Part shown: piece by piece, positions 52,001 to 54,432 of the stretch
Position numbering within the stretch: position 1 is the stretch's first letter
How the letters are laid out: each line of letters begins with the position of its first letter
Assembly: GCA_965112155.1 (NCBI GenBank)
Contig: OZ218106.1
DNA: 64,000 bases
Strand: one strand, 5' to 3'
Origin: Podarcis liolepis
Lineage: Eukaryota
Program-made: the position numbers and the translations under genes
The notes under the pieces: model-generated
What the model was told of the DNA's origin: nothing
Database searches by the model: none
The model's input: the letters and a program-made list of their open reading frames with translations, nothing else

Positions 52001-54196
52001 TCAATTAGTACAGGCAACATGTGCATGAGCCAAACTTAAAGCACATCATAAGAGGACACCTAAATTCCAGAGGCCAATGCACAAAACACCAGGGCGGGTA
52101 TCTTCCCAACCCTGGGGCAACCAATATCCCTACATCCAACAGTCACAATTTGAATTATCTGCAAGCTGCCTTAAAGGTTCATTTTTTAATTCAAAGGTGG
52201 GATATAAATGTTTAAATAAATGCATACTGCAGGCCATACACACAAACCTCACAACACAAATCCATGCCCCCCAAAATACAGGAACTTTCAGTCTTCAGAC
52301 ATAATTTTTTAAAACAATATACATTGGAATGTATTCATCTGAATGCATTTCAGCAGCCATTTAGAAATCCACATATCATTCAGAAAGAAACAATGCATTC
52401 TAATAGACTTTCAGCATTCGTCTTTAGCATCTCTCTCTCATACATAAATCGCAACAGCTGACACACATACACAACACTACACAGTACATGCTGGAATATA
52501 AACAGTTTCAAAAATCAACCAGCACGTACTTCCCAACAACTAACCAGGCCAACAAGCACACAGAGACCTCAGCATCCAAGCAACCAACTTGCCTAACCAA
52601 CTCAGCCCTTCTTCCAGAATTAACCTTGTCCCATTAGAGCAAGCTAATGAATACCAGCTCAACAGTGCCCACCTGAGCAATTGTTCTCATAGCCTGAAGG
52701 ATGCAGGGCTATGCTTGGTAGCCAGAGAGCATCTGCCACAACAGACTCACAAACTTCCAAAGTTCCACAGGGATGAAAAAAGGGGTAGTCTTGTAGACTT
52801 GTAACAACCCTATTCTCACACCAAAGATTATCACACAAAAGTTTACTACCCCACACTTTATGGCTTCACTATGCAGGCTTTGAACAATTTAAATAGCAGC
52901 AGCTGTGATGGTTGTGCGTTGTTGTTCTCCTAACTATTGAAATTGGGGCAGATGTATAGAGAGGAAATCTACCTATTCCCCCACTGATGTCCTTGGGAGA
53001 AAAACCACTGCTCTGAGTCTGCAATTTGCTTTGGGCCAGGGGTGAGGAACCTCTCCAGCTGTTTCTGGAGCCCAACATCCATTTGCGTCAGTCAAGATTG
53101 TCATTGGTCAGGGATGATGACAACTGCAGTCCAGCAGCATCTGGTGGCCTGCAGGATCCCCACCCTGGCTTGGGAGGGGGAATCCTACATTGGTGCCAAT
53201 GGGAATCCTCACCCCACCCCAATTCAAATATTAGCTTTGAAGGAAGGTGGGTTTCTCTTCCCCCTCCTCACTCTGGCTACTTCCTTGCCTGCTGTTGAGT
53301 GCCCTTCTACACCTCAAGATCCTTCCCCTTCATCATTTACTACTGTATCTAGTTTGGCCCTAAGTCCTGGAAACAAGGAAGATACAGTTGCAGTGGTTGT
53401 ATCAAACAGAAGGAGCCACTTGACTGTCTGGTTATAGGGAAGTCAGAGGCAGTGTGGCGTAGGAGTTGGTGCCAGATAAGGACCCCAGAAATCTGGGTTT
53501 GAATCCCCATTGGGTGAGCTTGGGACAGTAACAGTTTCTCAGCCTAACTTATGTTGTGAGGAGGAGGGGGAGAATCATGTACACTACCTGGAGTTCCTTG
53601 AAGGACAGATAGTATATACCTGTATTTCATCATCATCATCAATGCACAATTACACTCCAAAAACGGGCGGGGGGGAGAGAAATAGACGCAGGGGGAGGTA
53701 GCAGAATACAAAAGCAAATAGGTCCTTTGTTGGAGGGACCCTTCTCGCTCTCCCTCCTGTCACCTGCCCCCCCTTCCTCTTCCTCACCTTGCCTGCAGTC
53801 ACAGTAGCCCCAGTCGACCCTGCCGCGGCTGTTCCTGAAGAAGCACCAGGGCCTGCTCCTGCCGTCGGGGTTCCTGCAGAAGTTGCGCTGCCCTCGCAGC
53901 CCTCTGCCCTGAGGCGTCTTCTCCAGGAAGGTGGGCACGTCCGCCCAGGGCAGGCACTCGGCGCCGGACTCGGTGACGTTGACGAAGCGCCCGCCGCCTC
54001 GCGGGCAGCCGCCGGCGGGCTGGTGGTGCTGGAGCGGCAGAGGCGGCGGCGGCGGGGAGCGCGCCTTAGGCGGCTGGGGGGCAGAGCCCCGCGGGGCGAA
54101 AGGGAGAGGCGAGCGAGCCGGCTCCGAAGCGCCCGGCTCAGCGAGCGTCCCCAGAGCCGCCACTGCCGCCGCCAGGAAGAGGCGCGCGAATGTCAT
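3977..54196 (-). CDS. PRSS12: Neurotrypsin (serine protease 12/motopsin) gene, coding exons 1-11; 3' exons lie outside the window
   Basis: Spliced exons of 409,139,179,151,179,142,197,142,206,79,123 nt join in frame with GT-AG boundaries. Domain order kringle + 4 SRCR + RRQKR|IIGG + trypsin-like (WVLTAAHCF) is diagnostic of neurotrypsin. Confidence 0.97.
4583..4661 (-). CDS. PRSS12: PRSS12 exon 10 (zymogen activation site)
   Basis: 79 nt, GCATAG| and |[33 protein letters not shown], a proprotein-convertase-type site before IIGG. Confidence 0.95.
4874..5079 (-). CDS. PRSS12: PRSS12 exon 9 (SRCR4 second half and linker)
   Basis: 206 nt, TTCTAG| and |[74 protein letters not shown]. Confidence 0.95.
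5388..5562. mobile_element. Tc1/mariner-pogo-type MITE
   Basis: Perfect 20-bp TIR CCATATTGGCCTGAATATAA; TA on the right flank (TG on the left); subterminal repeat GAATATAAGCC. Confidence 0.75.
11190..11264 (+). mobile_element. Degraded tRNA-derived SINE head (Squam3-like)
   Basis: GGGCTGTAGCTTAGCTGTAG...AAGGTCCCAGGTTCCATTTCTGGC with box A/B remnants; related minus-strand copies near 4420-4500 and 18940-19005. Confidence 0.55.
13138..13495 (-). mobile_element. Sauria SINE
   Basis: Highly similar to 1194-1541; longer (ACCTTT)n tail; TSD GTATGTA at 13131-13137 and 13496-13502. Confidence 0.9.
13500..13803. repeat. Foldback (palindromic) non-autonomous element
   Basis: Nested inverted arms: 13551-13571/13700-13720 (21 bp perfect), 13589-13603/13634-13648 (15 bp perfect), outer GTAGCCTGCAG/CTGCAGGCTAC. 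Confidence 0.75.
15037..15079 (+). repeat. (TAAA)n microsatellite
   Basis: About 10.5 perfect units. Confidence 0.95.
15563..15704 (-). CDS. PRSS12: PRSS12 exon 8 (SRCR4 first half)
   Basis: 142 nt, TCCCAG| and |[54 protein letters not shown]. Confidence 0.95.
20016..20212 (-). CDS. PRSS12: PRSS12 exon 7 (SRCR3 second half)
   Basis: 197 nt, AAACAG| and |[71 protein letters not shown]. Confidence 0.95.
21174..21315 (-). CDS. PRSS12: PRSS12 exon 6 (SRCR3 first half)
   Basis: 142 nt, CTACAG| and |[54 protein letters not shown]. Confidence 0.95.
21642..21820 (-). CDS. PRSS12: PRSS12 exon 5 (SRCR2 second half)
   Basis: 179 nt, GTGCAG| and |[65 protein letters not shown]. Confidence 0.95.
24709..24859 (-). 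CDS. PRSS12: PRSS12 exon 4, left (duplicate) copy
   Basis: 151 nt with intact splice sites; synonymous GAT/GAC difference at 24762 versus 34616. Confidence 0.88.
27459..27637 (-). CDS. PRSS12: PRSS12 exon 3, left (duplicate) copy
   Basis: 179 nt with intact splice sites; differs from the right copy at 27618 (AAC Asn versus CAC His). Confidence 0.88.
29811..29955. mobile_element. hAT-type MITE with internal CCCTAA-containing repeats (left copy)
   Basis: Perfect 17-bp TIR CAGTGGCGTAGCGTGGG and perfect 8-bp TSD CCCCTCTC. Confidence 0.88.
31952..31981 (-). other. PRSS12: Truncated duplicate of the 3' 30 nt of PRSS12 exon 2, cut by the assembly gap
   Basis: Identical to 41838-41867 with the GTAAGT donor at 31951; sequence ends at the Ns. 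Confidence 0.9.
31982..32181. other. Assembly gap (200 N)
   Basis: Run of exactly 200 N, typical of a fixed-size scaffolding placeholder. Confidence 0.99.
34563..34713 (-). CDS. PRSS12: PRSS12 exon 4 (SRCR2 first half), right copy
   Basis: 151 nt, TTTCAG| and |[57 protein letters not shown]. Confidence 0.93.
37316..37494 (-). CDS. PRSS12: PRSS12 exon 3 (SRCR1 second half), right copy
   Basis: 179 nt, CCCACAG| and |[65 protein letters not shown]. The ORF track shows a different frame here. Confidence 0.93.
39669..39835. mobile_element. Same hAT MITE in the right duplicate copy
   Basis: TSD CCCCTCTC; left TIR has 2 substitutions; one extra ~21-bp internal unit. Confidence 0.85.
41838..41976 (-). 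CDS. PRSS12: PRSS12 exon 2 (SRCR1 first half)
   Basis: 139 nt, TATAG| acceptor and |GTAAGT donor; (G)[46 protein letters not shown]. Not in the ORF track. Confidence 0.95.
44070..44310 (-). mobile_element. Degraded L2/CR1-group LINE reverse-transcriptase fragment
   Basis: Minus-strand translation [27 protein letters not shown], then a frameshifted ...[12 protein letters not shown] segment resembling the GVPQGSILSP motif. Confidence 0.75.
44637..44843. mobile_element. Tigger/pogo-like MITE
   Basis: TIR CAGTGGTACCTCTGGTTA ... TAACCAGAGGTACCACTG with TA on both flanks. Confidence 0.85.
45370..45388 (+). repeat. (CA)n microsatellite
   Basis: About 9 units. Confidence 0.85.
47300..48067 (+). 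mobile_element. Degraded L2 LINE 3' end
   Basis: [32 protein letters not shown] resembles the L2 ORF2 C-terminal WLP...FKVL...KALNGLGP.YL motif; AAAT-rich tail at 48041-48067. Confidence 0.65.
47711..47965. mobile_element. Tigger/pogo-like MITE nested in an L2 3' remnant
   Basis: TIR CAGTGGTACCTTGGTTTA ... TAAACCAAGGTACCACTG with TA on both flanks. Confidence 0.85.
49523..49764. mobile_element. Tigger/pogo-like MITE
   Basis: TIR CAGTGGTACCTC.GGTTA with TA on both flanks; multiple internal TTCAGGTTA repeats. Confidence 0.85.
53037..53167. mobile_element. Old hAT-like MITE
   Basis: CAGGGGTGAGGAACCT ... GGATCCCCACCCTG termini; related degraded copies near 16440-16520, 43525-43650 and 59140-59240. 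Confidence 0.5.
53447..53615 (+). mobile_element. Degraded tRNA-derived CORE/MIR-like SINE
   Basis: GGCAGTGTGGCGTAG...CTGGGTTTGAATCCC...GGGTGAGCTTGGGACAGTAAC...TCTCAGCCT. Confidence 0.55.
53788..54196 (-). CDS. PRSS12: PRSS12 exon 1 coding part: signal peptide, Pro-rich segment, kringle
   Basis: ATG in GGCACCATGA context; [16 protein letters not shown]...; kringle motif [15 protein letters not shown]...[10 protein letters not shown]; donor G|GTGAG at 53787; 409 nt, ends in phase 1. Confidence 0.95.
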
Positions 54197-54432
54197 GGTG
54201 CCAGTCGCGCTCGCTTTGGTCCATCGCCCCTCGGCTCTCGCGCCCTGGCTGAGGGGAAAGAGAGGGCGGGGCCGCGCGGCGTCCCACTAATCCTCCCCCA
54301 CCCCCCGGCGGGGGAGCGCGCGACTCCTTTCCCCCGCCCCGCACGCTCCCCGGCGCCCCGGCCCGGCTCGCGCCCACGGAGCTGCCTCGGAGCAAGCTGC
54401 CGTCGTCCACCCAAGGACATCGACGACGACGT
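53790..54432. promoter_or_regulatory. CpG island over PRSS12 exon 1 and proximal promoter, with GC box
   Basis: Very high GC and CpG density against a CpG-depleted background; GGGCGGGG at 54264-54271; no obvious TATA box. Confidence 0.85.
54138..54224 (-). promoter_or_regulatory. Out-of-frame upstream ORF overlapping the PRSS12 start (28 aa, [28 protein letters not shown])
   Basis: GGGGCGATGG (G at -3, G at +4) with ATG at 54224, 28 nt upstream of the main ATG at 54196; stop at 54138-54140 inside the CDS. Confidence 0.6.

What the first reader, a model, noticed from the sequence alone, without database searches (positions are those of the whole stretch)
54138..54224. Strong-Kozak overlapping uORF 28 nt upstream of the neurotrypsin start, possibly conserved to mammals
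Seen: on the minus strand GGGGCG-ATG-GACCAAAGCGAGCGCGACTGGCACC-ATG-ACA. The upstream ATG has G-3/G+4, is out of frame (28 nt) and its ORF stops inside the CDS. Established: ribosomes that translate an overlapping uORF cannot reinitiate on the main ORF, so protein output depends on leaky scanning. From memory and unverified, the human PRSS12 5'UTR reads ...GCATGGACCAGACCCCGCAGCGCTGGCACCATGACG, with the same ATGGACCA start and 28-nt spacing. Inference: if confirmed, this is an amniote-conserved translational brake on a synaptic, agrin-cleaving protease.
Basis: partly seen in the sequence, partly recalled or inferred. Interest (0 to 1): 0.7.

Follow-up and report, generated by a model that had tools for sequence, protein, structure and literature searches.

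The report
Ancient overlapping uORF on neurotrypsin mRNA
A lizard's neurotrypsin gene carries a short decoy reading frame that starts 28 letters before the true start and overlaps it; the matching frame is listed as translated in human cells and its start appears to be kept in geckos, snakes and most mammals seen, so it likely limits how much of this synapse-cutting enzyme is made.

Summary
In a lacertid PRSS12 exon 1, an ATG at 54224 (G-3, G+4) lies 28 nt upstream of the conserved start (54196), out of frame, and opens a 28-codon ORF ending at 54138. Alone this is unremarkable (13-25% of shuffles). Its conservation is not. Human PRSS12 has a catalogued Ribo-seq overlapping uORF (c4riboseqorf85, 30 aa) that shares M-D-Q and W-H-H-D in the same register. 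Ji 2015 lists it with a mouse homologue, Ka/Ks 1.06, and among uORFs translated more than 3-fold above the main ORF. Leaders read through N-terminally extended predicted proteins fit a kept start in 17 of 18 distinct squamate and mammal leaders (one apparent loss); none puts it in frame. So the start, not the peptide, is conserved, probably since the amniote ancestor. Best reading: a cis-acting brake, with neurotrypsin made only by leaky scanning. Repression is untested, the lizard TSS is unmapped, and no bird, turtle or amphibian leader was seen. The human ORF is catalogued (labelled 'young'); I found no paper discussing it.

The parts
54138..54224 (-). Overlapping uORF, 28 codons plus TGA; stop 59 nt inside the main CDS and 350 nt before the exon 1 junction
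54221..54227 (-). uATG (54224-54222) with G at -3 and G at +4
54216..54224 (-). First three uORF codons (M-D-Q); the block conserved with the human uoORF and read as W-T/S-K/R in the main frame of other amniote leaders
54194..54196 (-). Main neurotrypsin ATG (A at -3, A at +4); falls inside uORF codons 10-11 (H-D)
53788..54196 (-). PRSS12 exon 1 coding part (signal peptide, Pro-rich stretch, kringle); spliced to exon 2 in RNA
54118..54358 (.). Stretch covered by one 267-nt contig (depth 3.8) of run X1, a close relative, RNA only guessed; no listed change at the uATG; its loose end matches, by eye, sequence up to about 54397
54249..54264 (-). Pyrimidine tract ending in AG, 25 nt upstream of the uATG (candidate start region or splice acceptor; either keeps the uATG in the mRNA)
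   Evidence: role inferred
53801..54400 (.). CpG island (GC 0.70-0.78, CpG o/e 0.79-1.0) with GC boxes at 54339 and 54269; no TATA match in 54500-54197
41837..41977 (-). PRSS12 exon 2 (start of the first SRCR domain), joined to exon 1 in runs X6 and X23

Best explanation
This is an out-of-frame overlapping uORF on PRSS12 whose start codon appears to be kept from squamates to mammals and which likely acts as a cis-acting, peptide-independent brake on neurotrypsin translation. Shown in the sequence: the uATG has a stronger context (G-3, G+4) than the main ATG (A-3, A+4), and its frame runs 59 nt past the main start. Shown in human cell lines by others: the orthologous ORF is translated. Established mechanism: ribosomes that start there pass the main AUG in another frame and cannot return to it, and exon 1 has no later ATG, so secreted enzyme would come only from leaky scanning or from transcripts that start too close to or past the uATG. 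Inferred: selection keeps the start to hold down the dose of a protease whose excess damages neuromuscular junctions. Inferred and weaker: termination 350 nt before the first junction could also expose the mRNA to NMD.
For: Human c4riboseqorf85 is a 93-nt uoORF on PRSS12 with M-D-Q at codons 1-3 and W-H-H-D at 8-11, as in the lizard. Ji 2015 supplements list the same 93-nt ORF as an overlapping uORF, with a 90-nt mouse homologue, Ka 0.313, Ks 0.295, Ka/Ks 1.06, and in the 'high uORF' list (>3-fold the main ORF's efficiency). Of 18 distinct leaders (5 squamate including the window, 13 mammal-type), 14 have Trp (TGG, the TG and +4 G of the start) at -9; 1 rodent-type has it at -8, matching the 3-nt shorter mouse ORF; 2 are frame-shifted and show the A instead (H-G at 26 nt, D-G at 29 nt). 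Squamate x mammal identity is 0.91 at -9 against 0.05 and 0.02 at -3 and -4 (4 x 11 in-register leaders). No extension placed the start in frame. The stop is not at a homologous place in lizard and human, PhyloCSF is negative and no MS study saw the peptide. Optimal-context overlapping uAUGs are disfavoured, yet surviving ones are more conserved than expected (abstract). Excess neurotrypsin degrades NMJs and loss causes intellectual disability (passages).
Against: No repression assay exists in what I searched. The '>3-fold' figure comes from cycloheximide-pretreated breast and fibroblast lines with overlapping regions excluded, so it rests on about 28 nt next to a start codon (bias inferred). 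The mouse ORF is a sequence homologue, not shown translated there. 1 of 18 leaders (P0140, squirrel-like) reads D-R at -10/-9, which excludes an ATG at that place. The A of the ATG is not visible in the 15 Trp leaders, and the T is not visible in the 2 shifted ones. Leaders are seen only where a gene caller extended the protein, which is a biased sample. The conserved block reaches to about +9, further than Kozak needs. The lizard TSS is unmapped: of 8 runs laid only X1 covered the uATG. The human RefSeq used by Ji starts only 18 nt before the uATG, which may favour leaking.
Confidence: 0.72

Rival explanations
1. The 9-10-nt block is conserved as a promoter-proximal DNA element or RNA-binding site, and the ATG inside it is a tolerated by-product.
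For: Conservation extends beyond +4 (K/R at -7, identity 0.73) and to Gly at -11 (0.91); the block lies in a TATA-less CpG-island promoter near the likely start region.
Against: The human ORF is called translated. The changes seen in the block (T/S at -8, K/R at -7) can be read as conservative or silent in the uORF frame (D/E, Gln), though codons are not visible. The observed indels (25, 26, 28, 29 nt) all leave it out of frame. No stable fold (z +1.47) and no Rfam match.
Confidence: 0.13
2. The uATG is real DNA but most PRSS12 transcripts start so near it, or past it, that it has little effect, in the lizard above all.
For: CpG-island promoters have dispersed starts (general knowledge); the human RefSeq in Ji 2015 has only 18 nt before the uATG; 7 of 8 runs laid gave no cover at 54224 (a filter removes records, so this is not a test).
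Against: The mouse RefSeq has 220 nt before its uATG; the X1 contig reaches at least 134 nt upstream of the uATG; ribosome footprints on the human ORF require the uATG in the mRNA.
Confidence: 0.1
3. The uORF encodes a functional micropeptide or a stalling peptide (M-D-Q...W-H-H-D).
For: 7 of the first 11 residues are identical between lizard and human.
Against: W-H-H-D is explained by the main ATG and its Kozak context; Ka/Ks 1.06 human-mouse; PhyloCSF -105 and -548, 0 MS studies; no Pfam match; two lineages shift frame, and in the beaver-cluster leader the ORF would end after 9 codons on a stop overlapping the main ATG (inferred).
Confidence: 0.05

Closest known systems
Human PRSS12 uoORF c4riboseqorf85 (Ribo-seq ORF catalogue, PMC10032668 supplement; PRSS12:NM_003619:19-111 in PMC4739776 supplement)
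   Same: Same gene, same class (overlapping uORF), same 28-nt register, M-D-Q and W-H-H-D shared, similar length (30 vs 28 aa). It is the orthologous element.
   Different: Stop at a different place; peptide past codon 11 unrelated. The catalogue labels it 'primatomorpha - young', a label based on peptide similarity with ORF structure traced only to the primate-colugo ancestor; the squamate data make the start much older.
ATF4 uORF2 (and ATF5-type inhibitory overlapping uORFs)
   Same: Out-of-frame uORF that overlaps the CDS, so translating it excludes the main start (ATF4 as described).
   Different: ATF4 has short upstream uORFs that allow delayed reinitiation under stress. The lizard leader has no other ATG for 195 nt upstream, so only leaky scanning or start-site choice can relieve it; stress control is untested.
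Optimal-context overlapping uORFs ('VuORFs', Hsu and Chen 2012, PMC3486843)
   Same: Strong-context, conserved, out-of-frame overlap, the class that abstract reports as more conserved than expected.
   Different: That study covers human, mouse and fly as a class (abstract only seen); this case is traced to squamates.
Conserved-peptide uORFs (AMD1 MAGDIS type; recalled)
   Same: Conserved short ORF in a vertebrate leader.
   Different: Here the peptide evolves neutrally and the frame can shift; only the start is kept.

Membership tests
Overlapping uORF (uoORF/oORF) | AUG upstream of the main start, out of frame, stop inside the CDS | tested here: met
Overlapping uORF (uoORF/oORF) | Main start correctly assigned | tested here: met
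   orthologues from squamates, turtles and amphibians start at the same Met
Overlapping uORF (uoORF/oORF) | uAUG lies within the mature mRNA in this lineage | tested here: inconclusive
   one contig, depth 3.8, from a run guessed to be RNA spans it; spliced RNA evidence stops at 54120
Overlapping uORF (uoORF/oORF) | Translated | not testable with these tools
   no lizard Ribo-seq; the human orthologue is listed as translated
Conserved cis-repressive uORF | Start codon conserved beyond neighbouring leader positions | tested here: met
   17 of 18 leaders compatible; identity 0.91 at -9 vs 0.02-0.05 at -3/-4; indirect, through protein read-out
Conserved cis-repressive uORF | Removing the uAUG raises main-ORF output | not testable with these tools
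   no such experiment found
ATF4-type delayed-reinitiation switch | A short reinitiation-permissive AUG uORF upstream of the overlapping one | tested here: not met
   no ATG between 54419 and 54225; the ATG at 54420 opens 75 codons and abuts a microsatellite
Conserved-peptide uORF | Peptide under purifying selection | tested here: not met
   Ka/Ks 1.06, negative PhyloCSF, frame shifts in 2 of 18 leaders

The most novel reading that the evidence does not exclude
The element is a roughly 300-million-year-old regulated gate: most ribosomes are diverted from neurotrypsin at rest, and neuronal activity or stress changes start-codon stringency to release a pulse of agrin-cleaving protease. Human variants that destroy the uATG would then be gain-of-expression alleles for neuromuscular junction loss and sarcopenia, and the uATG would be a handle for raising or lowering neurotrypsin.
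Probability: 0.2. Interest if true: 0.75.

Novelty: new member of a known kind. Interest (0 to 1): 0.48.

Why it matters
Neurotrypsin is dose-sensitive both ways: loss causes recessive intellectual disability and excess breaks neuromuscular junctions (passages in PMC9616769). A translational brake on it is not discussed in the papers searched, although the human ORF sits in Ribo-seq catalogues. Start-codon conservation from lizards to mammals turns one anonymous catalogue row into a one-mutation experiment, flags the PRSS12 5' leader for variant interpretation, and shows that a 'young' label based on peptide similarity can hide an old regulatory start.

Tried and rejected
TSS mapping: one search listed no holder on record as RNA. 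8 of its 24 runs were laid: X5, X12 and X8 gave only short spurious pieces, X14 and X21 gave nothing, X23 gave 3 reads and X6 one contig at the exon 1-2 junction, and only X1 covered the uATG; holes are no evidence because a filter removes records. Orthologous leader DNA: the metagenome scan gave 2 loci, one fish-type exon 1 (L002) with five upstream ATGs within 250 nt, none overlapping the CDS and not comparable by eye, and one unrelated kringle. RNA structure: none beyond shuffles; Rfam 0 matches. Micropeptide: rejected on Ka/Ks, PhyloCSF and frame shifts. Main-frame N-terminal extension as the cause of the conserved Trp: rejected because three lineages carry indels, two of them frame-shifting. 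ATG at 54420 (75 codons): next to a (TAA)n microsatellite and beyond the RNA-type cover; not counted. Supplements of PMC11057154 held no PRSS12 entry. The original catalogue paper was not held, and the supplements of PMC13275300, which may hold ORF-conservation and peptide data for this ORF, could not be seen. Earlier scan notes: none relevant.
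Full report
Observation. On the minus strand the ATG at 54224 has G at -3 and G at +4. It lies 28 nt before the ATG at 54196 (A at -3, A at +4), out of frame, and opens 28 codons that stop at 54138, 59 nt inside the coding sequence. These are the only two ATGs between 54419 and the end of exon 1. The gene is PRSS12 of a lacertid lizard: exon 1 holds a kringle, is 91% identical to Zootoca neurotrypsin and 97.8% to Podarcis muralis neurotrypsin, whose later exons map down the window as far as residue 649. 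Squamate, turtle and amphibian orthologues start at the same Met.

Chance. In 4000 dinucleotide shuffles each of 60-, 100-, 170- and 200-nt leaders, a strong-Kozak overlapping uORF appeared in 13-25%, so the feature in one genome means little. An ATG exactly at -28 appeared in 0.1-0.5%. The case therefore rests on conservation.

Human and mouse. A supplement row of Sandmann 2023 (PMC10032668) lists c4riboseqorf85 on PRSS12: uoORF, 93 nt, 30 aa, 'primatomorpha - young', mode unknown, 0 MS studies, PhyloCSF -105 (primates) and -548 (mammals). Its peptide has M-D-Q at codons 1-3 and W-H-H-D at 8-11, as the lizard ORF does; in the lizard the main ATG sits in the H-D codons. I computed the residues that a primate signal peptide (P0301, Pygathrix) allows in the overlapping frame at 28-nt spacing. 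By eye the human peptide fits 20 of 21 positions including the stop; the one misfit falls where other mammals have Met in place of Val. Supplement rows of Ji 2015 (PMC4739776) list the same 93-nt ORF as a translated overlapping uORF at transcript positions 19-111, with a mouse homologue at 221-310 (90 nt), Ka/Ks 1.06, and in the list of uORFs translated more than 3-fold above the main ORF. That ratio is soft: cells were cycloheximide-pretreated breast and fibroblast lines and overlapping regions were excluded. The mouse entry is a sequence homologue. In Sandmann's methods 'young' means low peptide similarity outside primates, and ORF structure is traced no deeper than primatomorpha, so the label is not an age limit for the start codon.

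Wider conservation, read indirectly. No orthologous tetrapod leader DNA could be fetched. But gene callers sometimes extend exon 1 upstream in frame, which translates the leader. Of 175 records passing a loose filter (it let in some unrelated kringle proteins), 40 had 12 or more residues before the signal Met (39 proteins and the window), 40 had no Met matched by my pattern and were dropped, and the rest had no such extension. The 40 collapse to 18 distinct leaders: 5 squamate and 13 mammal-type, labelled by named cluster members where present (Crotalus, Castor, Ursus, Eschrichtius) or by likeness. Trp, whose single codon gives the TG and the +4 G of the upstream start, stands at -9 in 14. It stands at -8 in a rodent-type leader, which matches the 3-nt shorter mouse ORF. 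Two leaders are frame-shifted and show the A instead: H-G-P-N in the beaver cluster (26 nt; A at -3) and D-G-A-N in a colubrid-like snake (29 nt; G at -3). One, P0140 (squirrel-like), reads D-R and cannot hold an ATG there. In all 15 Trp leaders the preceding residue (Ala, Arg, Val) allows an A in third place, but does not prove it. Across 4 squamate x 11 mammal in-register leaders (the loss included; rodent and shifted ones left out) identity was 0.91 at -9 and -11, 0.73 at -7, 0.50 at -8, and 0.05 and 0.02 at -3 and -4. No record showed a 1-11-residue extension that would mark an in-frame fusion. No bird, turtle, crocodilian or amphibian leader was visible, so 'amniote' is by parsimony. One fish-type locus had no overlapping upstream ATG.

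Is it in the lizard mRNA? One search listed 24 runs; 8 were laid. X6 (one contig) and X23 (3 raw RNA reads) join exon 1 to exon 2, confirming the donor, but stop at 54120 or earlier. One 267-nt contig of X1 (a close relative; RNA guessed; depth 3.8) covers 54118-54358 with no listed change at the uATG. This is weak. No start site was seen. The region is a TATA-less CpG island with GC boxes and a pyrimidine tract ending in AG 25 nt upstream of the uATG. The leader folds no better than shuffles (z +1.47).

Mechanism. By the scanning model (established), ribosomes meet the stronger upstream start first, read through the main AUG out of frame and stop 59 nt beyond it. They cannot return, and exon 1 has no later ATG, so secreted enzyme would come from leaky scanning or from short-leader transcripts. 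The peptide looks neutral and the stop is not homologous between lizard and human, so the start itself is the likely target of selection (inferred). The stop lies 350 nt before the first junction, so NMD coupling is possible (inferred). A reason for a brake: excess neurotrypsin degrades neuromuscular junctions and loss causes intellectual disability (passages of PMC9616769). There is no short upstream uORF for ATF4-type delayed reinitiation, so a static dampener is the default and a regulated gate is the bolder reading. Rivals are a promoter or RNA element that happens to contain ATG (the block is longer than Kozak needs), a start site that bypasses the uATG, and a functional peptide (least likely).

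What is known. The class is well known, and optimal-context overlapping uAUGs are reported as disfavoured but conserved once present (abstract of PMC3486843). The human ORF and its mouse homologue are catalogue rows. Full-text searches gave 0 papers for PRSS12 with uORF, 0 for PRSS12 with 'upstream open reading', 1 unrelated-looking listing each for PRSS12 with ribosome profiling and neurotrypsin with 'upstream open reading' (listing only), and no neurotrypsin occurrence in the 20 and 40 listings. Subscription papers, including the original cDNA papers, are not searched, and the supplements of PMC13275300 could not be seen; they may already give a conservation score for this ORF. PMC4890304 was seen as passages only and added nothing specific.

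Verdict. A real overlapping uORF, orthologous to a catalogued human one, with a start that appears conserved across squamates and mammals. New member of a known kind; the depth of conservation and the link to neurotrypsin dose are the new points. Repression is likely (0.72) but untested. Interest 0.48.

Noticed in passing
window 22321-31981 and 32182-41867: A 9.7-kb tandem duplication at 98.3% identity on either side of a 200-N gap (31982-32181), repeating the PRSS12 exons for residues 183-241 and 239-295; most likely a false haplotype duplication in the assembly.
   Followed up: partly
window 55600-56200: A second CpG island 1.5 kb upstream with an E-box-like site and a donor-like motif near 55985 on the minus strand; could be an upstream non-coding exon or the promoter of another transcript. 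No Rfam match.
   Followed up: no
window 54436-54485 and 54500-54900: A (TAA)17 microsatellite 210 nt upstream of the uATG; by eye, degenerate repeats of a roughly 200-nt unit further up, and a short dispersed repeat near 54510-54625 with 18 other matches in the genome.
   Followed up: partly
window 54193-54420: A 75-codon ORF from the ATG at 54420 ends on a TGA overlapping the main ATG; probably outside the mRNA. The same frame is the one the uORF would use in the beaver-cluster leader.
   Followed up: partly
P0140 (unnamed record, squirrel-like): Apparent loss of the upstream ATG; a natural knock-out if real, or an assembly error.
   Followed up: no
P0042, P0043, P0145, P0171 and similar: Gene callers' false N-terminal extensions on vertebrate contigs serve as a read-out of 5' leader sequence in protein databases; usable for other uORF checks.
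   Followed up: yes
P0110, P0111, P0114, P0115 (bird neurotrypsin models): These bird models keep the signal peptide but lack a recognisable kringle in exon 1; probably frameshifted GC-rich assemblies or mis-annotation.
   Followed up: no
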